Virus record (IMG/VR): IMGVR_UViG_3300027861_000016
Span: 1-64,000 of that record
DNA: 64,000 bases
Origin: a virus
Reading direction: 5' to 3' (one strand)
Numbering within the stretch: the first letter of the stretch is position 1; the number at the start of each line of letters is the position of its first letter. Positions 7,601 through 53,683 of the stretch are shown piece after piece. Position numbers and translations under genes: made by a program. The notes beneath the pieces were generated by a model. That model made no database searches and was not told where the DNA came from. It saw only the letters and a program-made list of their open reading frames with translations.

Positions 7601-8251
7601 AGCTGCTGACTTATATGTGGAATTTAAACCATTAGATCTACTTTGAAGACTAGCTATTTGTCTAGAAACACTATTAGCTAGTTTCTTAGGTATATCATCT
7701 GTAGTATCTACATATTCTTTAATGGAATCTAATATATCAAAACCTTCTAATATTTCTAAACCTTGATTCAATTGAGTTAATGTAAATCCAGGAATATCTG
7801 TACCTAATTGCTTCTTAGATTCTTCTCTTTCTTTATTGATAGAATCTCTTTTCCTTTCTAAAGAAGATAGAATACCATTAGTATTATTTAAGAATATAGC
7901 TAAAGACTCAGATACATCAGCATTCTCAAAGTTCCTAATAGTAGTTTTTAAATCTGTAAGAATCTTCTTTAGTTCAGTAGTCTGTTTACCGGCTTTCTTC
8001 TTATTGTATATATTTAAAGTAGTATTCAAAGATAATTGGACTGACTTTCTCAAGTCAACCAATCTCTTAACACTTTGAGTAACTTCAGCAGTAATTGGGC
8101 TTTCAACCAATTCCATTCTTAAAGTTTCTATTTGATCCAAGGAAGGAATCTCCTCTTTATTTAATATAAAGAGTTTGATTGCTTCTGGTTCTCCTACTTC
8201 TTTCTCTAATTCTTTCCACTCTTTCGAGTTAGTATTTGGACATGAAATCAT
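4700..8251 (-). CDS. Large ejected virion cargo protein (downstream of vRNAP)
   Basis: 1183 aa helical protein; N-terminal 'SCPNTNSKEWKEL'; C-terminal hydrophobic helices; crAss-like synteny. Confidence 0.7.
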   Translation of the reverse strand: MISCPNTNSKEWKELEKEVGEPEAIKLFILNKEEIPSLDQIETLRMELVESPITAEVTQSVKRLVDLRKSVQLSLNTTLNIYNKKKAGKQTTELKKILTDLKTTIRNFENADVSESLAIFLNNTNGILSSLERKRDSINKEREESKKQLGTDIPGFTLTQLNQGLEILEGFDILDSIKEYVDTTDDIPKKLANSVSRQIASLQSRSNGLNSTYKSAAKSQLADVLGQESTIQTGMRRRALELIYKADNDKKKSTLKWKAYDKLMNASVEKQLIAERPQLVVKERDYIYNLLSESPGDISAISAWIVDPRNVTQDSIIQTAVGLLDRASSKIRTDFIKDRAVLSNAFEEFSKKVGTEGVKITDQRELYKNMLEKNAEGKYTGFYTRKLKFEYYNELSEMKAALAEIDYQTDIIVAEIRELKQDPEKNKERLDELTKQGNELFAKRTEVENKWFSKFKTTKPTDPTDIAEWESTYEMYYDKVKKEERPNRYIRKDAESGQYKDLEKDTTRFDYYNKLVDFNKSSDKMVKGSGKQLGMKLPGMKTKTNELINRADSLKEAGKSYYKRKTDSLKREADDYAYGNLDTITEDGIVKVIGTQSGQQFKSVSVPFRADVPIEDQSFDLSGMAVTNRYVSLNFKHKHELKDTLELTKELVGSRKFDVTSPGTYKKMKQVMKKTFNISDEEETEILQQIKEGGKQSNSYKLLTSVIEDRLYGLSSIPGGEMFGLSVDKIANKTMEFAANQMLILNWGSGAANILQGKTMNFLGSVQGDVYDLKNLHKGEVKYTSPTEMLANMQDIGKLAPTSKTNILMELFIGDSVGFDGFINDFTQDSQIKRLGQVKNLHMVNGMAEHYIQGTLMYAIMDSYKAKNKPGPDGDYIDIEGNIVKDEKDAATLDQVFTVDSKGNFENKKGFYFDNVGNTDNIENLISNVSRIIQDKVADLQGNYSQENKSMIQRYWWGKLGIFLRKFIQRGIQSRWKGFETVRTNKSEIDPHLLGYSEASKTFKEGTYVTLGRFMSELYKHKEHLGAELLTKDWNNLTTSERGNIRKAIMEIGIMFGALFAAKLLADLADEDDDNEALYFAAYLSRRMWNELFFFTPVSVLSGEAVRFLETPTAALNIMKTTGLMLDSMLDDATSAEFHQFGSGRRKGEYKSWVYLNKTLNPFYKNFVDYSYRDKYNFAANAR

Positions 8252-42130: not shown

Positions 42131-44479
42131 TTACTTTTGTCCTACAACTTTATTTTTTAGAGCTGTGGCATTCTTCTCTTTCTCAATCTTCTCTTTAGAC
42201 TTGATCTCTTCTCTCTTCAAGTTTCTATCTTTCTCTTTATTCAAGTTATCAGAATTTATCTTAGACTGCTCAAGAGCAGTAGAAGCATAATCAAATACTT
42301 CTACAGTTCCGCTATCTTGAGTGTCTGTATCGAATCCAGCAGATTTCATTGCCTCTACTTGTATCTTATTCTCTCTATCTAATTGATTTTGGTCTGCTTC
42401 AAATTGTTGAGCAGCTTGTTGTAATTGTTGAGCACCTTCTCTTTCAGCTTCAGCTTGTTGTTGTTCTGCTGCTTTCTTATTAGTCTCAGCATCTTTAATA
42501 GCATGAGATATTTCAGCAATAGAATTAGATTTAACTAAATCAACTATACCTGAGAATTCAACCATTCCAGATGATAAAGCTGTCTCACCTAATCTTTCTA
42601 ACTTATTAAGTATGTCTCTATCTTTGCCAGAGTTAGTAATGAATACTCCATAATCAGAATCGGGAAACTTTTCCATATCTATATCCATAAATACTCTAGA
42701 TATATCATTCATTACATAAGTTAGTTTCTTCTTACCTTGATAAGCAAATTTAGATACTTCTAATAATGCTGTAAGAACATCTTTCTTAACTATGTTATGT
42801 TGGTAGAACCAAGGTTCGGTTATGTATGTTGAATTGGCTATTGCTGCTTGAGTTCCAGAAGCTGTTTCAGAAGCTTTAGTTTGACCTTCTCTTTGTGGAG
42901 TAATACCAATTACTTTATCTATCAATTGTTCAATCTTACTAAGTATATTAATATACTGCCCTACAGATTCCGACATAGCCATATCTATAGATTGGAATTG
43001 ATTAAAGTTTGGTTGTTGTTGATTCTTTCCTTCTTCTAATGAATTAATAACTGCTATATCCATGTTAGAAAACATGTACATCCATTTATTCATATCTATA
43101 CCTTCTGATCTAGGTATCTGTGCCATATCCATTACAAACTTCTTACCTTGAGCTTTATTCATTTCTCTTTCAAGATTGAACCAAGTAATCATGTACATAT
43201 ATTGAAATGGTTTTAACAAATCAACAACTGATGTAGGAAGAGTATTTGTAGTATTATGTACTTTACCTATGTAAGGTAATTGTACTTTTCTAGGATTATC
43301 CATTGAACGCCCTTGATATTCTAAAGCTGATATATTTAGATAAAGATCAGACTCTACTTTAGTTCCTTGCCATACTTCTGGAATCCAAGTCCAGTCTATA
43401 GTAACTCCTAATTCTTTCATCTCTTCAGTTAATTTGAAAGATTCATCAACCATCATAGACTCTTCAGGATTTTCAGGATCTAATAGAAATCCTATCTTCT
43501 TTAGTGACTTCCAAGTAACTGTAGATACAGTGTATAAATTATTATTAGTATTATCCTCATTAAACATATCTAATTTATGTTTAGGTAAAGCATAACCTAC
43601 TGGTTGATTTACATTAAATGATAATCCTATTTCCCCCTTATCTAATTTTCTAACTTCAGAATCAGACATGAACTCACCGTACTCATCTATAATCTGTCCA
43701 ACAGTCATTAGTCTATCTTCTCTAAACCAATCACCATCTTGAATAGTGTTGTTAGAAGGATTCTTATCATAATCACAATATAGAGGATTACAAACTCTTA
43801 CATTAGGTTCACCATTAACAATTCCTACATGAGCAATCTCATGAGAAGATATTAAAGCGTGTTCCCATAAATCTTGGAATACATTGTGTAAGTCTAATTC
43901 ATATTCTAAATACTTCAATAGATCATTAGCCCATACTTCTCTAATATCTTGAACTGAATAATTAATCCATTTCTTTAATTCTTTGAATGATTGAGGTTCT
44001 CCTTCTTGTTGTTCCGGAGGATTACCAAATTCACCTAAAGCTTTTGCAAATTCAGATTGAGCTACTTTCTTAACCATATCAGCTACCATCTTTTCTTTGA
44101 TAGTAACAGCATTACCATTTACAGCAATTGCTGAATAGTTGAAGGGTCTAGATAACTCTTCACCTTTTAAAAGATTAATCTTATTTATAATAAGGTTATA
44201 ATCTCTCATCTTAGAAGGTTGATTCAAATCCATAGATGAACCATCCATACCATAAGGCTGAGTTACATAGTTGAAATCTGCTGGATCATATATAGAATTG
44301 ACTAGTCCATAGTTTGCTTTCATTTTAGTCTTACCTGAACGAAAGCTCATATCAACTCCTGACATTCCTAATATACCGTCCACATTCTGTTCTTGCCATT
44401 TCTTAGTGTTCTTCACTGATTGTGAAACAGCTTGAGCAGGTCTTCCAATATTTTTATATATTTTTTTTGTAGTATCCAT
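42131..44479 (-). CDS. Portal protein
   Basis: 782 aa; 'KINLLKGEE..RPF', 'WIPEVWQG', 'SVVDLLKPFQYMY', 'GITPQREG'; lies between terminase and capsid genes. Confidence 0.9.
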   Translation of the reverse strand: MDTTKKIYKNIGRPAQAVSQSVKNTKKWQEQNVDGILGMSGVDMSFRSGKTKMKANYGLVNSIYDPADFNYVTQPYGMDGSSMDLNQPSKMRDYNLIINKINLLKGEELSRPFNYSAIAVNGNAVTIKEKMVADMVKKVAQSEFAKALGEFGNPPEQQEGEPQSFKELKKWINYSVQDIREVWANDLLKYLEYELDLHNVFQDLWEHALISSHEIAHVGIVNGEPNVRVCNPLYCDYDKNPSNNTIQDGDWFREDRLMTVGQIIDEYGEFMSDSEVRKLDKGEIGLSFNVNQPVGYALPKHKLDMFNEDNTNNNLYTVSTVTWKSLKKIGFLLDPENPEESMMVDESFKLTEEMKELGVTIDWTWIPEVWQGTKVESDLYLNISALEYQGRSMDNPRKVQLPYIGKVHNTTNTLPTSVVDLLKPFQYMYMITWFNLEREMNKAQGKKFVMDMAQIPRSEGIDMNKWMYMFSNMDIAVINSLEEGKNQQQPNFNQFQSIDMAMSESVGQYINILSKIEQLIDKVIGITPQREGQTKASETASGTQAAIANSTYITEPWFYQHNIVKKDVLTALLEVSKFAYQGKKKLTYVMNDISRVFMDIDMEKFPDSDYGVFITNSGKDRDILNKLERLGETALSSGMVEFSGIVDLVKSNSIAEISHAIKDAETNKKAAEQQQAEAEREGAQQLQQAAQQFEADQNQLDRENKIQVEAMKSAGFDTDTQDSGTVEVFDYASTALEQSKINSDNLNKEKDRNLKREEIKSKEKIEKEKNATALKNKVVGQK

Positions 44480-47295
44480 TAATATCTATAGTTTGTATTT
44501 TGAGTTGGATTATTTGTAAAATAGTTTTCTAAGTTATCGAAGAACGCATCTACTTTAGTTTCTTTAACCATGTCTACTCTTACTTTATAATTATCTAACT
44601 TATGTGTTATTACTAATAACATTGCAATGATTCTATCAAAGTTACCAGTATCATTATAATTAATAAGTTCATCTAGTAATGGTAACGAATAAATCTTATT
44701 AAGGTTTAGTTTTCCGTCTTGATCTTCTTCCATTAACCAATCTCTAAGATACATTTCCATCTCTAACTTAATATCCTTAGTCATATGAATACCATATTGT
44801 CTGTTTACTTTAGATCCTTCTGTTGCTTTTAGAATAGTAGGAGTCTTCTTTAATAGATGTAAACATCTTTTAAATTCTAAATGATATTTTAATGTGTTCC
44901 TCTCATTCTCATATAAGTCTTTTGCATTATAATACATCAAAAGCTTTCTAACATTTTCATGATGTTCATGTGCTGTATCAGGTCTAGCTGTATATTCAGC
45001 TACTAACCAATGATTAATCTGATCTAATCCTCCAAATGTTTTATAGATATACGTAGATCCTAATGAAGTTGTTGTGGATTGATCCTGATCATATGGATCT
45101 GTTCCTGCTATGTAAAGACCAAACGGAATATTCCCTTCATTATCTTTTTTAGGATGTTCCCATATTTGTACACAGCCTGTAGTATCATCAGTCTTTTGCA
45201 TATTATATTTACAAGGAACTAATTTACCTTTTAGATCTGGTTTCCATATTACTTCATTAGCTGTATCTGGTTTTATAAATAATTCACCACATTGACCTTG
45301 AACTAATCCATCAGTTTGTATAGCTGATTGAACCCATCCTCTTTGTTCCATTAACTCTGCTGTGGGAAATATATTTGAGTTACTAACATGAAATGCTTCA
45401 GTTGGTACATCAGGGTTATTCTGTATCTCAGCTTCATATTTGTATCTATCCTTTTGATTTAGTAGCTTTTCACGTTTATCTTCTGTAAACATACTAGCTC
45501 TAGATAGATCAATGACTCCATTAGAATCTCTATATTCATCAAACTTAAACTGATAAGGTATAAAGAATCCTACATTCCCATTACCTTCCCAAATATCTTC
45601 AAAACATAAAGCATCATATCTTTCAGGATGAAAGAACATATCTTTGATTCCTTCTGATACTCCTTTACCCATATCTCCACCAGTCCCTGTTGCATAGATA
45701 GTACCAAACTTATTTAGTCCATCTTTAGTAGCATCTGTAAGTGCTGAGAATGTTTCTATAATATTAGAGAAGAATCCTACTTCCTCTAATACTATTAAGT
45801 TAGGTCCAGTACCATTACCTGCTAATGGGTTATCAGCAAATGTTCTATGATGTATTTTAGATCTAGACCCTTTAGTTACCCAGCCTCCAGGAAGTTTCTG
45901 ATCAAACGCTGCTTCTAAGAATTTACCTGGCATTAGAGATCCTCTACTTTGTTTAGCAAATGGAGAAGGTCTTTCAATACCATTGAAAGTCATATTTCCT
46001 TTTAAATTCTCTAAGATTAGTTTAGTCTTATTTAGTAAATCTCCAGAGTACTTGGAATCAATAGCTCCTACTAATGTTTCAGAAGAAGGTATAGTACCTG
46101 TATTCTTAGCATTTAGAAACATATCATAGTCAGTGGCTCCATCAAATAAATAGTTATGAACTATCATAGATCCTGCACTTCCCCAAGAGTTATGTGTAAC
46201 TACATAATCATTGACTAAGAACAAAGAATCTTTATTATCCACTCTAATACATACTGAGGGTTTTATATCTAAAGGTTTAATATCATGTATTGCACACCAA
46301 GAGACTCCTAGCTCTGGAAGATACGAAGGTATATCATATTTATAATGCTTTATACTACAATCATAATCATAAAAGAATTCAGTTCTAAAATTATCTAGTT
46401 CTAACGTTACTTCCTCTTCTGTTTTTCTGTCTCTTACTGTCCATAAATGTCCACCACCACATGTTACAGTTCTACCGTCCCTCAAAGTAACTTCATATTG
46501 TAACTGATCGTCAAAATCAATTCTCTCTAAAATAGTAGTTGGTTTACCGTCACCTCCAAAGATAATATCCCCTACCTTTACATTTTTAATAACTCTCTTT
46601 GAACCATCAATATAATGTAATAAACTATCTTCATGTAGATCTTTTCCCATACGTCTAGCTTGTATATCCACTACGTTAGAGGCATTATTCTCATATAAAG
46701 GTTTACCATAATTCTTAGGATGTATCCTTCTTAAATAATCTCTAGGATGTACAAAGGTTTTAAACTTACCGTCCTTCTTATAAGCTGTTGGGGGTATAAT
46801 AGCAAGTTCTAATTTTCTTTTATATTGTTCTTTATCTTTATTACTAAGTTCTTCTAATTCTTTTACTATATGTAAGCAAGTGATAGTATCATCCCCATCG
46901 AATCCAGAGAATCCTCTAGACTCCATATAGACATAAGCTTTCTCCCATTCTATATCTCTAAGAAATGGACTACCTAATGATTTACCTTTAGAATTAGGTA
47001 GGTTCAAAAGTATCATACAGAAATTAGTATAGAAATATAAATTACCCGGCATCCATTTACCTTCAACCCAATATCCTTCTATACACTTTCTCTTCTGTTC
47101 TTTCCAGTAATTTGTGTATTTATTTGTATGTGGATTCATGTAACTAGGAAGTTCTATAATGAACTTATTCCTATCTACACCTTTACTATGTAAACCTCTT
47201 TCAGCATATTTCCAGTAGTCACAACTAGCCAGTCTTTTATGTAATTTATCAGCAGGTACTATTTCAATTCCTGATCCGCTTTCCACTTCAGCCAT
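44479..47295 (-). CDS. terL: Terminase large subunit (intein-containing)
   Basis: 938 aa; Walker A 'ARRMGK|S' split by an intein; Walker B 'IVLEEVG'; coupling motif 'GTGG'; RNase H nuclease 'GTDPYD' and 'NFDRI'. Confidence 0.92.
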   Translation of the reverse strand: MAEVESGSGIEIVPADKLHKRLASCDYWKYAERGLHSKGVDRNKFIIELPSYMNPHTNKYTNYWKEQKRKCIEGYWVEGKWMPGNLYFYTNFCMILLNLPNSKGKSLGSPFLRDIEWEKAYVYMESRGFSGFDGDDTITCLHIVKELEELSNKDKEQYKRKLELAIIPPTAYKKDGKFKTFVHPRDYLRRIHPKNYGKPLYENNASNVVDIQARRMGKDLHEDSLLHYIDGSKRVIKNVKVGDIIFGGDGKPTTILERIDFDDQLQYEVTLRDGRTVTCGGGHLWTVRDRKTEEEVTLELDNFRTEFFYDYDCSIKHYKYDIPSYLPELGVSWCAIHDIKPLDIKPSVCIRVDNKDSLFLVNDYVVTHNSWGSAGSMIVHNYLFDGATDYDMFLNAKNTGTIPSSETLVGAIDSKYSGDLLNKTKLILENLKGNMTFNGIERPSPFAKQSRGSLMPGKFLEAAFDQKLPGGWVTKGSRSKIHHRTFADNPLAGNGTGPNLIVLEEVGFFSNIIETFSALTDATKDGLNKFGTIYATGTGGDMGKGVSEGIKDMFFHPERYDALCFEDIWEGNGNVGFFIPYQFKFDEYRDSNGVIDLSRASMFTEDKREKLLNQKDRYKYEAEIQNNPDVPTEAFHVSNSNIFPTAELMEQRGWVQSAIQTDGLVQGQCGELFIKPDTANEVIWKPDLKGKLVPCKYNMQKTDDTTGCVQIWEHPKKDNEGNIPFGLYIAGTDPYDQDQSTTTSLGSTYIYKTFGGLDQINHWLVAEYTARPDTAHEHHENVRKLLMYYNAKDLYENERNTLKYHLEFKRCLHLLKKTPTILKATEGSKVNRQYGIHMTKDIKLEMEMYLRDWLMEEDQDGKLNLNKIYSLPLLDELINYNDTGNFDRIIAMLLVITHKLDNYKVRVDMVKETKVDAFFDNLENYFTNNPTQNTNYRY
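46189..46641 (-). mobile_element. Class-3 mini-intein (151 aa) in the terminase Walker A motif
   Basis: Starts DLHEDSLL, ends VVTHN followed by Ser; W-C-T signature (GHLW, VCIRVD, VTHN); no LAGLIDADG motifs. Confidence 0.85.
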
Positions 47296-52129: not shown

Positions 52130-52432
52130 TTATTTATATAATTTACAACAACATTCTTCTTTCTCATATCCATTGATACATAATTGATCAATGGTAATCT
52201 CATAAGGTAATTGACTTTCAAAAGGACAATTACTCTTAGGTGTTCTTTCTACTTGACATGGACAATAACCTTCTTTCTTTTCTATACCATCTAATATCTT
52301 GTGTACATATTTAATATCTTGGTTAATTGTTAGTTTTTCTTTCTTCTTAGCTTTTTGCTTCTGTACTATTCCTAATACTTCTTTCATGGCTGCGTCTAAA
52401 TCTCTAACTACTGTTTCTTTATCTAATATCAT
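52130..52432 (-). CDS. Ferredoxin:thioredoxin reductase catalytic subunit-like protein
   Basis: 'GYCPC...CPF...C...CCCKLY' versus the FTR CPC/CPC/CHC pattern; likely ATG start at 52432, just after a promoter. Confidence 0.6.
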   Translation of the reverse strand: MILDKETVVRDLDAAMKEVLGIVQKQKAKKKEKLTINQDIKYVHKILDGIEKKEGYCPCQVERTPKSNCPFESQLPYEITIDQLCINGYEKEECCCKLYK

Positions 52433-52436
52433 ACAC

Positions 52437-52467
52437 CAAATGTACACTAATAATTCTATAAAACAAA
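52437..52467 (-). promoter_or_regulatory. Bacteroidota housekeeping promoter (leaderless mRNA)
   Basis: TTTG-N19-TACATTTG, with ATG 4 nt downstream. Confidence 0.65.
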
Positions 52468-52498
52468 AAATCCTCTAACATTAATTTGTTAGAGGATT
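52461..52498 (-). terminator. Intrinsic terminator
   Basis: 12-bp perfect stem AATCCTCTAACA/TGTTAGAGGATT, 6-nt loop, TTTTGTTTT tail. Confidence 0.85.
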
Positions 52499-52657
52499 AT
52501 AATTTTCCACCAGGAAGCAAACCTTGGTTTGTACATTAATTTGAAAGGACTTATTCATACTTTACCTTTCTTGTATAACCTATCTATGACATAGGCTTCG
52601 TGGAAGTGAAAGAGTCGAACTTTCTTTATACCCTCTAGTAGTAACCATTACTTCCTT
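52463..52657 (-). ncRNA. ~190-nt small RNA with a 5' tRNA-like (acceptor + T-arm) domain
   Basis: GGAAGT...GAAAG-TTCGACT-CTTTC-ACTTCC-A at 52655-52601; own promoter and terminator; further hairpins 3'. Confidence 0.55.
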
Positions 52658-52663
52658 ATTCTG

Positions 52664-52694
52664 CAAATATAATATTATTAATTTAGAATCCTAA
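52664..52694 (-). promoter_or_regulatory. Bacteroidota promoter for the small RNA
   Basis: TTAG-N19-TATATTTG, 8 nt upstream of the tRNA-like 5' end. Confidence 0.6.
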
Positions 52695-52699
52695 TGTTT

Positions 52700-52852
52700 C
52701 TATAGTAAAAGGATTAAAAATACTATCAATACTATGATAGGTAAGAATCTAAATACTTCAAGTACTAATATTACTATATAATACAGAAGTAATAAATTGA
52801 TGTAAAATACTACTATAAGTAAGAGTAGTATTATTTCTATAAATGTTTTCAT
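52700..52852 (-). CDS. Small membrane protein
   Basis: 50 aa, almost entirely hydrophobic (MKTFIEIILLLLIVVFY...). Confidence 0.45.
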   Translation of the reverse strand: MKTFIEIILLLLIVVFYINLLLLYYIVILVLEVFRFLPIIVLIVFLILLL

Positions 52853-52854
52853 AT

Positions 52855-53037
52855 CTAAAATCTAAATATATCTTTTTGTTTTATTCTCTTTATAAACTGT
52901 GATGGACTAATACCTCTCTTATGTATTTCTGAAATATCCATAACAAACTTACATCCTTGTCTTTTCTTACACCTATCAATATTAATTAAAATTCTTCTAT
53001 AGAATTCTTTCTTCTGTTTTCTTGGTAGTCTGCTCAT
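52855..53037 (-). CDS. Hypothetical basic protein
   Basis: 60 aa, begins MSRLPRKQKK. Confidence 0.55.
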   Translation of the reverse strand: MSRLPRKQKKEFYRRILINIDRCKKRQGCKFVMDISEIHKRGISPSQFIKRIKQKDIFRF

Positions 53038-53479: not shown

Positions 53480-53683
53480 AAGTCAAATATAATAATTTTT
53501 TTTATTTTTTATAATACAAAGTAGATTAATTTATATAGGGAGGTGTACAAATTGTATGAAGGGTTACAAATACCATGGTCTCTATCATACCCTCCCCTAG
53601 TCAGCGGTGGAGATTGGCTGTACCCCCATGTTTATCACAGCTTTAAATTCAATTCATTTATTAATAACTTAATACATAACATT

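What the first reader, a model, noticed from the sequence alone, without database searches (positions are those of the whole stretch)
52463..52694. Stand-alone small RNA beginning with a minimal tRNA-like domain
Seen on the minus strand: promoter (TTAG-N19-TATATTTG), then GGAAGT-A-...-GAAAG-TTCGACT-CTTTC-ACTTCC-A, a 55-nt unit with acceptor stem and T-arm but only ~23 nt in place of the D and anticodon arms. About 100 nt of further hairpins follow (GCCTAT/ATAGGT, GAAAGG/CCTTTC, ACCA-AGG/CCTGGT), then a 12-bp terminator. There is no ORF inside. Inference: a dedicated ncRNA resembling the tRNA-like domain of tmRNA or Y RNA, possibly processed by RNase P/Z to release a tRNA mimic and a 3' RNA.
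Basis: partly seen in the sequence, partly recalled or inferred. Interest (0 to 1): 0.72.

Follow-up and report, generated by a model that had tools for sequence, protein, structure and literature searches.

The report
Anticodon-less tRNA mimic in marine phage
A marine crAss-like phage carries a short promoter-to-terminator unit that begins with a tRNA lacking its anticodon arm; it fits a widespread, uncatalogued family of phage RNA elements that probably recruit the host's tRNA-trimming enzymes, but no cutting or expression has been shown.

Summary
The sequence features are present as described, on the minus strand. There is a Bacteroidota-type promoter (52694-52664), a 55-nt acceptor/T-arm minihelix (52656-52601), about 100 nt with hairpins, and a strong terminator (52498-52463).

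Two points in the finding do not hold up. A minihelix of this kind is not rare by chance (0.72 per shuffled genome), and the inner hairpins fold no better than shuffles. The claim of "no ORF" is also wrong: a 25-codon ORF lies at 52558-52481.

What makes the element credible is AAUGGUUA directly after the acceptor strand. This is the invariant linker of a family of 41-55-nt anticodon-less tRNA mimics that I found in many viral contigs:
- 42 of 101 distinct pattern hits have the flanking acceptor helix, against 2-9 in controls.
- Syntenic orthologues show compensatory changes.
- The elements are intergenic and co-directional with their neighbours, and 29 of 41 lie within 100 nt upstream of the next ORF.
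- Two of them bracket GOLLD RNA in related crAss-like phages.
- Similar elements lie unannotated in Lactococcus phage p2.

The window copy is atypical. It has a 6-bp acceptor and a 17-nt insert, the covariance model gives only E 0.18, and the nearest relatives have no orthologue.

The best reading is a handle for RNase P and RNase Z processing. It is not tmRNA or Y RNA. This scan has noted the same family before on other DNA. No RNA data were available.

The parts
52664..52694 (-). Bacteroidota-type promoter: TTAG, 19-nt spacer, TATATTTG. Inferred transcription start near A52659.
   Evidence: Read directly from the sequence. The motif TTNG-N18-20-TAnnTTTG occurs only 7 times in the 96-kb genome on both strands. 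Its core, TAATAATATTATATTTG, resembles the conserved promoter of leaderless mRNAs in the phi14:2-like clade, and also window 53500-53484, which is followed by ACTT-ATG. The start site is inferred from those leaderless cases.
52601..52656 (-). Anticodon-less tRNA mimic. Acceptor (A.)GGAAGU/ACUUCC(.A), AAUGGUUA linker motif 52649-52642, 17-nt insert 52641-52625, T arm GAAAG-UUCGACU-CUUUC 52624-52608.
   Evidence: The family it fits is defined.
52597..52600 (-). 3' trailer CGAA, against the family consensus C-UAA. CCA is not encoded.
   Evidence: the R2 alignment puts C52600 at the invariant C of the family.
52577..52597 (-). Hairpin 2: a 7-bp stem with a 7-nt loop.
   Evidence: Present in the minimum-energy folds. 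Not above chance as a group.
52543..52570 (-). Hairpin 3: a 6-bp stem with a 16-nt loop that holds the ATG at 52558-52556.
52481..52558 (-). Possible 25-codon ORF (MNKSFQ...LTN) that ends in the terminator loop.
   Evidence: Translation. There is no evidence that it is translated. By my own estimate, an open frame of this length has roughly a 10-20% chance in AT-rich sequence.
52512..52530 (-). Segment AACCA...UUGCUUCCU, which can pair (9+5 bp) with 52656-52643. This is an alternative to the minihelix.
   Evidence: -48.3 kcal/mol for the long-range fold against -47.5 for the minihelix fold. The minihelix is the minimum-energy fold for the first 140 nt transcribed and has an ensemble probability of about 0.22.
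52463..52498 (-). Intrinsic terminator: a 12-bp stem, a 6-nt loop and a U run.
52437..52467 (-). Next promoter, TTTG-N19-TACATTTG, serving the downstream gene (ATG 52432). It bounds the unit.

Best explanation
The locus is a short transcription unit in an uncultured marine crAss-like phage. Its first ~57 nt fold as the top half of a tRNA: a coaxial acceptor/T-arm helix plus a D-loop-like AAUGGUUA that can dock on the T loop. There is no anticodon arm.

It fits a widespread, uncatalogued family of such elements in phages, as an atypical copy with an insert in the linker.

The most likely mechanism is inferred, not shown. Host tRNA-maturation enzymes would treat it as a pre-tRNA. RNase P would cut at its 5' edge. 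RNase Z or exonucleases would cut after the discriminator, near 52601/52600. CCA might then be added. This would excise a ~55-nt mini-tRNA and fix the ends of the flanking RNAs:
- the 3' end of read-through mRNA from the operon promoter at 53500;
- the 5' end of the ~135-nt downstream RNA, which may be a small RNA or a 25-codon mini-mRNA.
For: The phage:
- The record is a 95.9-kb IMG/VR virus. TerL matches crAss-like phages.

The family:
- The same plan recurs in related crAss-like loci and in many unrelated viral contigs: a 7-bp acceptor, (A)AUGGU(U), a short linker, then a T arm with UUCGAUU.
- 42 of 101 distinct hits to ATGGT-N5-25-GGTTCGATTCC carry a flanking acceptor helix of at least 6 of 7 bp. 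Displaced controls give 2-9.
- Syntenic orthologues show compensatory changes in 5 of 12 pairs, including 4 of 5 T-stem pairs.
- Model R2 finds 31 copies at E<0.01.

Fit of the window copy:
- AAUGGUUA lies directly after the acceptor, the T loop and the G53:C61 pair are present, and the C-NAA trailer matches.
- The descriptor including this motif is expected 0.01 times per shuffled genome.
- The top R2 hit in the window falls on this element.
- Members with inserts at the same point exist: L046 with three, L055, and L300.

Context that fits processing:
- Elements are intergenic and co-directional with their neighbours. 29 of 41 lie within 100 nt upstream of the next ORF start.
- Two elements bracket GOLLD RNA in L051 and L172.
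- In L019, two copies are each followed by a 100-190-nt non-coding stretch ending in a U run.

The unit itself:
- The promoter is of a conserved type and the terminator is strong.
- The minihelix forms first during transcription.

Established knowledge, recalled rather than tested here: acceptor/T-arm minihelices are sufficient substrates for bacterial RNase P and for CCA-adding enzyme. t-elements play this role in plant mitochondria (PMC1920247).
Against: - The nearest relatives have no orthologue. In L194 (67% TerL identity) the strand switch sits where the unit would be.
- The R2 score is weak (16.7 bits, E 0.18) and its alignment uses a different 5' strand.
- Model R1 misses the element altogether.
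- The acceptor has only 6 bp, the stems are AU-rich, and the folding energy is no better than shuffles.
- A long-range fold of nearly the same energy competes with the minihelix.
- The phage encodes no recognisable CCA-adding enzyme, RNase Z or RNA ligase, so everything would depend on host enzymes.
Confidence: 0.45

Rival explanations
1. The excised or intact mini-tRNA is itself the product. It would be a tRNA decoy or sponge that occupies enzymes or defence toxins recognising the acceptor/T-arm/elbow or the CCA end, or a CCA-tailed minihelix that gets charged. The flanking RNA would be incidental.
For: - The unit has its own promoter placed 3-4 nt before the element, which suits making the element itself.
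- The elbow-forming AAUGGUUA and the T loop are the most conserved parts of the family.
- Multi-copy arrays exist: three in L046 and two in L019.
- Phage tRNAs that neutralise tRNA-targeting defences are known. This is literature cited within, not tested here.
Against: - There is no G3:U70 or other identity set confined to the acceptor.
- Most family members sit just upstream of ORFs inside operons, not in stand-alone units.
- No partner protein is conserved next to them.
Confidence: 0.2
2. It is a decaying tRNA remnant or a chance look-alike with no function of its own. The promoter and terminator would simply serve the neighbouring small genes.
For: - The nearest relatives have no orthologue.
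- The model score is weak.
- The acceptor/T-arm descriptor is common by chance, 0.72 per genome.
- The folding energy is unremarkable.
- The genome holds other aberrant tRNA-like genes.
Against: - The exact 8-nt family motif at the exact position brings the expected count down to 0.01.
- The C-NAA trailer matches the family.
- A 265-nt gap in an otherwise tightly packed phage operon is bounded by a dedicated promoter and terminator.
Confidence: 0.15
3. The unit is a mini-gene. The 25-codon ORF (52558-52481) is the product, and the tRNA-like fold is a 5'-UTR element that stabilises or processes its mRNA.
For: - The ORF starts 43 nt after the element, which is the typical element-to-ORF distance in the family.
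- The ATG lies in a hairpin loop within an A-rich context.
- In Lactococcus phage p2 an element sits about 20 nt before an unannotated small ORF.
- The phage has many ORFs of 36-60 aa.
Against: - By my own estimate an open frame of 25 codons has a 10-20% chance here.
- There are no homologues to test for coding conservation.
- Neighbouring genes in this phage look leaderless, whereas this ORF would have a ~100-nt leader.
Confidence: 0.1
4. The RNA adopts the long-range fold: a multi-branched ~150-nt small RNA closed by a 9+5-bp helix (52656-52643 with 52530-52512). The T-arm-like hairpin would then be just one of its arms.
For: This is the minimum-energy structure (-48.3 kcal/mol) and the centroid.
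Against: - The energy is not above shuffles once the terminator is removed (z -0.86).
- The minihelix fold is within 0.8 kcal/mol and forms first during transcription.
- This fold would bury the family motif AAUGGUU.
Confidence: 0.1

Closest known systems
t-elements of plant mitochondria (Forner et al. 2007, PMC1920247)
   Same: These are tRNA-like folds without decoding function. They sit next to mRNA ends and are thought to act as cis-signals for RNase P and RNase Z (abstract read). The intergenic, co-directional placement is the same.
   Different: They belong to organelles, not phages, and share no sequence family with this element. They lack the AAUGGUUA linker. Cleavage was mapped for t-elements but not here.
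mascRNA at the MALAT1 3' end, and the tRNA-like parts of murine gammaherpesvirus 68 TMER transcripts (recalled from memory, not tested here)
   Same: A tRNA-like module is fused to another non-coding RNA, and RNase P or RNase Z cleavage separates the two. The window unit (mimic followed by ~135 nt of RNA) and the GOLLD RNA bracketed by mimics have the same layout.
   Different: Those are eukaryotic, and they keep a cloverleaf with an anticodon-like arm.
Canonical phage tRNA genes and tRNA islands (Rfam RF00005)
   Same: The acceptor stem, the T arm with UUCGAnU, a D-loop GG equivalent, and location in phage genomes. Some family members lie near true tRNAs, ROOL or GOLLD.
   Different: There is no anticodon arm and no D stem. 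Rfam (at its gathering threshold) and ARAGORN never call these elements tRNA.
tmRNA tRNA-like domain, and bacterial Y RNA (YrlA)
   Same: Both are a partial tRNA shape lacking an anticodon.
   Different: In tmRNA and YrlA the two acceptor strands or the module are separated by, or embedded in, a large functional domain. Here the two strands are 43 nt apart. There is no G3:U70, no tag frame, and no ARAGORN or Rfam match.
Phage P1/P7 C4 antisense RNA, matured by RNase P (recalled from memory, not tested here)
   Same: A phage small RNA whose end is made by RNase P acting on a tRNA-like acceptor mimic.
   Different: It is a different fold and family, with no T arm. Rfam found no C4 match in the window.

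Membership tests
Phage anticodon-less mini-tRNA family (uncatalogued; defined here by alignments A3/A6 and models R1/R2) | Acceptor helix of 7 bp stacked directly on a 5-bp T stem | tested here: met
   6 Watson-Crick pairs (GGAAGU/ACUUCC) plus a terminal A.A. The terminal pair is also non-standard in 3 of the 8 seed sequences.
Phage anticodon-less mini-tRNA family (uncatalogued; defined here by alignments A3/A6 and models R1/R2) | AAUGGUU(A) directly 3' of the acceptor 5' strand | tested here: met
   AATGGTTA at 52649-52642. Columns 8-14 are invariant in A6.
Phage anticodon-less mini-tRNA family (uncatalogued; defined here by alignments A3/A6 and models R1/R2) | T loop UUCGAnU closed by a G:C pair | tested here: met
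   UUCGACU closed by G52620:C52612. The family mostly has UUCGAUU with GG/CC.
Phage anticodon-less mini-tRNA family (uncatalogued; defined here by alignments A3/A6 and models R1/R2) | Short linker (9-12 nt) between the acceptor and the T stem | tested here: not met
   The linker is 25 nt, which is the motif plus a 17-nt insert. Members with inserts at the same point do exist: L046 (19, 40 and 50 nt), L055 (68 nt) and L300 (27 nt).
Phage anticodon-less mini-tRNA family (uncatalogued; defined here by alignments A3/A6 and models R1/R2) | Significant covariance-model score | tested here: inconclusive
   R2 ranks the element first in the 64-kb window, but at 16.7 bits and E 0.18, and with an alternative 5' strand. 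R1 gives no hit.
Phage anticodon-less mini-tRNA family (uncatalogued; defined here by alignments A3/A6 and models R1/R2) | Intergenic position, co-directional with the flanking genes, and a C-NAA trailer | tested here: met
   The element lies between minus-strand ORFs ending at 52700 and starting at 52432. The trailer is C-GAA.
Phage anticodon-less mini-tRNA family (uncatalogued; defined here by alignments A3/A6 and models R1/R2) | Orthologues with compensatory changes in related phages | tested here: not met
   No orthologue of this copy was found in 160 TerL-anchored loci. Covariation is shown only for other members.
Canonical tRNA (RF00005) | Cloverleaf with D stem and anticodon arm; detected by Rfam or ARAGORN | tested here: not met
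   ARAGORN finds nothing, with or without introns. Rfam gives no tRNA hit even at E<=10 over 52200-53000.
tmRNA | G3:U70, tag reading frame, pseudoknots; detected by ARAGORN or Rfam | tested here: not met
   Position 3:70 is A:U. ARAGORN's tmRNA search and Rfam are both negative.
YrlA / bacterial Y RNA | Match to the Rfam Y RNA-like model; Ro-binding stem; neighbouring rsr gene | tested here: not met
   No Rfam match. Pfam and PHROGs hits of the neighbouring ORFs include no Ro-like protein.
tRNA-like RNA-processing signals (t-element / mascRNA type) | Cleavage by RNase P at the 5' edge and by RNase Z at the 3' edge in vivo | not testable with these tools
   No RNA run holds the stretch.

The most novel reading that the evidence does not exclude
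Anticodon-less mini-tRNAs are a general phage device for maturing non-coding RNAs. The same handle that heads this ~190-nt unit brackets the giant GOLLD RNA in related crAss-like phages, and it sits next to unannotated RNAs in model lactococcal phages. If so, host RNase P and RNase Z would define the ends of a whole hidden layer of phage RNAs. The released, CCA-tailed mini-tRNAs might also act as decoys for defence toxins that target the tRNA acceptor end.
Probability: 0.25. Interest if true: 0.8.

Novelty: new variant of a known kind. Interest (0 to 1): 0.55.

Why it matters
If these tRNA top halves are processing handles, phages use a tRNA-punctuation strategy so far known from mitochondria, a mammalian long non-coding RNA and one herpesvirus. 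Many 'empty' intergenic gaps in phage genomes would then be functional RNA signals.

The link to GOLLD gives a concrete, testable idea of how that giant RNA gets its ends. Similar elements in Lactococcus phages p2 and sk1 mean the idea can be tested in a laboratory system straight away.

The window copy adds a variant: the handle sits at the very 5' end of its own promoter-driven unit.

Tried and rejected
Known RNA families and sequence relatives:
- Rfam (gathering threshold, and E<=10) and ARAGORN on the locus: no family.
- blastn of the locus against 50,697 phage records: nothing.
- Exact 23-nt pattern in viral contigs: nothing.
- nhmmer and blastn of the locus against 160 TerL-anchored loci: only promoter-like 20-mers.

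Finding related phages:
- TerL as a single query and the neighbouring 222-aa protein in viral contigs: no close relatives.

Covariance models:
- R1 does not score the window element.
- R1 finds nothing in Cellulophaga phage phi14:2.

Expression:
- Sequencing runs: no RNA holder listed. Only two seawater DNA runs came up, and one may be the source of this DNA.
- Laying their contigs gave no variant over the RNA. The second run does not cover it.

Other tests:
- Complementarity of the RNA to the rest of the phage genome: nothing above chance.
- Folding-energy z-scores for the minihelix and the body: not significant.
- Search for phage-encoded tRNA enzymes: only a PNKP-type phosphatase domain and a weak radical-SAM match. 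The plus-strand arm is a DNA-replication module with no CCA-adding enzyme, RNase Z or RNA ligase.
- GOLLD or ROOL in the window: none.
- Literature searches for a described phage mini-tRNA family: nothing found.

I did not use the third model build, structure prediction or complex prediction. None of them could settle the open points.

Full report
**What the window is.** The window is the first 64 kb of a 95.9-kb IMG/VR virus record. It has about 30% G+C, giant ORFs of up to 3281 aa, and a large terminase whose best named relatives are crAss-like phages (Cellulophaga phage phi14:2 at 33% identity). The only sequencing runs that hold the stretch are seawater metagenomes.

The finding lies in a 265-nt gap in a tightly packed minus-strand operon of small genes. 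It is 5.2 kb upstream of the terminase gene and 0.8 kb from the point where transcription diverges.

**Checking the observation.**
- TTAG-N19-TATATTTG (52694-52664).
- A minihelix, GGAAGU ... GAAAG-UUCGACU-CUUUC-ACUUCC-A (52655-52601), with 25 nt where the D and anticodon arms would be.
- Three hairpins.
- A 12-bp terminator with a U run (52498-52463), which the terminator scan also reports.

Two corrections are needed.
- There is an ORF: 25 codons from ATG 52558 to TAA 52481.
- Most of the pieces are not statistically remarkable on their own. A 6-bp acceptor plus a 5-bp T stem plus TTCRANN appears 0.72 times per shuffled genome. The minihelix and the 155-nt body fold no better than shuffles. 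The low z-score of the whole unit comes from the terminator.

**What makes the element credible.** A structural scan of 80 loci anchored on terminase relatives found the same kind of element in other crAss-like phages. The plan is a 7-bp acceptor, (A)AUGGU(U), a few more nucleotides, a T arm with UUCGAUU, and the acceptor 3' strand, 41-55 nt in all.
- L019 has two copies.
- L046 has three in tandem, with inserts of 19-50 nt after the AUGGU motif.
- L045, L051, L058, L060 and L064 have syntenic orthologues.
- In that orthologous group, 5 of 12 pairs, including 4 of 5 T-stem pairs, change on both sides and stay paired.

Of 101 distinct hits, 42 have an acceptor helix of at least 6 of 7 bp exactly flanking the motif. 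When the 5' strand is taken 10-40 nt further upstream as a control, the count is 2-9. So the family is broad and is not confined to crAss-like phages.

A model built from eight ungapped 45-nt members (A6, R2) recovers 31 copies at E<0.01. Its consensus is acceptor - AAUGGUUAAU - T arm - acceptor - C - UAA. One caveat applies: the pair counts on A6 are partly circular, because I chose those sequences for their pairing. The enrichment test and the syntenic group are the independent evidence.

Rfam never calls these elements tRNA at its gathering threshold. I found no paper describing them. This scan's own earlier notes describe the same family on other DNA. I treated those notes as leads only.

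**Does the window copy belong?** In favour:
- AATGGTTA lies directly after the acceptor strand (52649-52642).
- The T loop has a closing G:C pair.
- The terminal pair is mismatched, as in 3 of the 8 seeds.
- The C-GAA trailer matches the family's C-UAA.
- With the motif included, the descriptor is expected 0.01 times per shuffled genome.

Against, or weak:
- The linker carries a 17-nt insert.
- R2 ranks the element first in the window, but only at 16.7 bits and E 0.18, and by pairing a different 5' strand.
- R1 does not see it.
- Members with inserts at the same point do exist, for example L300, which has the same 6-bp acceptor, AAUGGUUA, a hairpin insert, a UUCGACU loop and an A-CG trailer. 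I therefore rate membership at about 0.7.
- Conservation of this copy cannot be shown. The nearest relatives with enough flanking DNA (L194, 67% TerL identity; L196, 61%) lack the unit. In L194 the strand switch lies just upstream of the homologue of window genes at 51.7-51.9 kb.

**Promoter and transcript.**
- The -7 box TAnnTTTG alone is common: 131 copies in the genome. The full TTNG-N18-20-TAnnTTTG occurs only seven times, and two of those flank this unit.
- The promoter core resembles a strongly conserved promoter in the phi14:2-like clade that is followed, after four bases, by an ATG (a leaderless mRNA). It also resembles window 53500-53484, which precedes ATG 53479 in the same way.
- By analogy, transcription should start near A52659, 3-4 nt before the mimic.
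- No terminator separates the upstream operon from the unit. Read-through transcripts would therefore also carry the mimic about 45 nt after the stop of the last gene.

**Alternative folds.** The minimum-energy structure closes the body with a 9+5-bp long-range helix that uses the acceptor 5' strand and AAUGGUU (-48.3 kcal/mol). Enforcing the minihelix costs only 0.8 kcal/mol. The minihelix is also the best fold for the first 140 nt transcribed. The calculation cannot decide between the two.

**How it most likely works.** Across the family, the elements are intergenic and co-directional with their neighbours. In 29 of 41 cases they lie within 100 nt upstream of the next ORF start.
- In L051 and L172, two elements bracket a GOLLD RNA (Rfam, 222-223 bits). 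The downstream element starts 10-87 nt after the end of the GOLLD match. GOLLD is known to lie near phage tRNAs.
- In L019, each of two elements is followed by a 100-190-nt non-coding stretch ending in a U run.
- In Lactococcus phage p2, the 'non-coding' right end holds two unannotated tRNAs and two anticodon-less elements. The last one lies about 20 nt before an unannotated small ORF.

This distribution suits a cis-acting processing signal. The conserved parts (acceptor/T-arm stack, elbow, non-CCA trailer) are what RNase P, RNase Z and CCA-adding enzyme read on a pre-tRNA. That last point is established knowledge, not tested here. The closest described analogue is the plant mitochondrial t-element.

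For the window unit, this predicts excision of a ~55-nt mini-tRNA and release of a ~135-nt 3' RNA. That RNA may be a small RNA or a 25-codon mini-mRNA. All of this is inference. No RNA data exist for the locus.

**Rivals.**
- The mimic could itself be the product, acting as a decoy or sponge.
- It could be a decaying remnant or a chance match.
- The unit could be a mini-gene.
- The long-range fold could be the real one.

I give these 0.2, 0.15, 0.1 and 0.1. The tmRNA and Y-RNA comparisons fail their membership tests. It is only weakly borne out: the PNKP-type phosphatase domain is real, but the arm is a DNA-replication module with no CCA-adding enzyme, RNase Z or RNA ligase that Pfam can see.

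**Verdict.** The element is real, and it is probably an atypical member of an uncatalogued but widespread phage family of anticodon-less tRNA mimics. This scan has met the family before. The family is interesting. This particular copy adds a stand-alone, promoter-driven variant, but it has no orthologues and no expression evidence.

Noticed in passing
window 61262-61383 (+): A tRNA-Glu(UUC) gene with a 45-nt insert after position 37. ARAGORN finds it only with introns allowed, and Rfam's tRNA model gives 48.5 bits over 121 nt. Its trailer is A-CTAA, like the mini-tRNA family.
   Followed up: partly
window 63500-63576 (+): A second aberrant tRNA-like element: a 7-bp acceptor, a perfect T arm (CCAGG-TTCGAGT-CCTGG), and a non-canonical middle with no 7-nt anticodon loop. 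Neither Rfam nor ARAGORN calls it. The trailer is T-CGAA, as at the finding.
   Followed up: partly
L051 3222-3611 (-) and L172 2695-3086 (-): GOLLD RNA (Rfam RF02032, 222-223 bits) in phi14:2-like crAss-like phage contigs. An anticodon-less mini-tRNA lies about 500-570 nt upstream, and another lies 10-87 nt downstream.
   Followed up: partly
L274 (Lactococcus phage p2, GQ979703.1 26537-27595): The roughly 1-kb unannotated right end holds several features. Two tRNAs pass Rfam's threshold (locus 1009-1079 and 1149-1221). There are two anticodon-less tRNA-like elements (near 1350-1420, and 1495-1536). Unannotated small hydrophobic ORFs start at about locus 1557 and 1716. The same stretch is conserved in sk1, P008, bIL66, jj50 and many ASCC phages.
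   Followed up: partly
window 53484-53500 (-) and 52437-52467 (-); L039-L081 about 2 kb upstream of TerL: Promoter-like TAnnTTTG boxes are followed after 4 nt by an ATG. This suggests leaderless mRNAs in this phage and in the phi14:2-like clade, where the motif ...TTTTATTATATTTG(T/A)CGCATG is almost invariant.
   Followed up: partly
window 44479-47295 (-): The terminase large subunit has 938 aa, against about 750-770 aa in its closest relatives. The extra part is in the N-terminal half. Many relatives of 1050-1470 aa carry intein or homing-endonuclease domains.
   Followed up: no
window 59069-59512 (+): A stand-alone HAD-type PNKP phosphatase domain protein (Pfam E 3e-32) with no kinase domain. 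It sits in a replication module that also has an ATP-dependent DNA ligase (G000 72485-73534).
   Followed up: partly
L019 95-125 and 465-500 (-): A repeated motif, TTAATTAAA-TT-ACTAAAATACTTT, lies directly after U-run terminators and a few bases before ATG starts. It may be a phage-specific promoter in that crAss-like phage.
   Followed up: no
L134 3415-4413 (+): ROOL RNA (Rfam, 372 bits) embedded in a tRNA cluster, in a viral contig that also carries a mini-tRNA element at 7768-7810.
   Followed up: no
L045 5894-5989 (-): ARAGORN calls a 96-nt 'tRNA-SeC(tca)' in a phi14:2-like phage contig. It could be an opal-suppressor-type tRNA.
   Followed up: no
L086 595-741 (+): RT-3 RNA (Rfam, 136 bits) in a viral contig that also carries a mini-tRNA element.
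   Followed up: no
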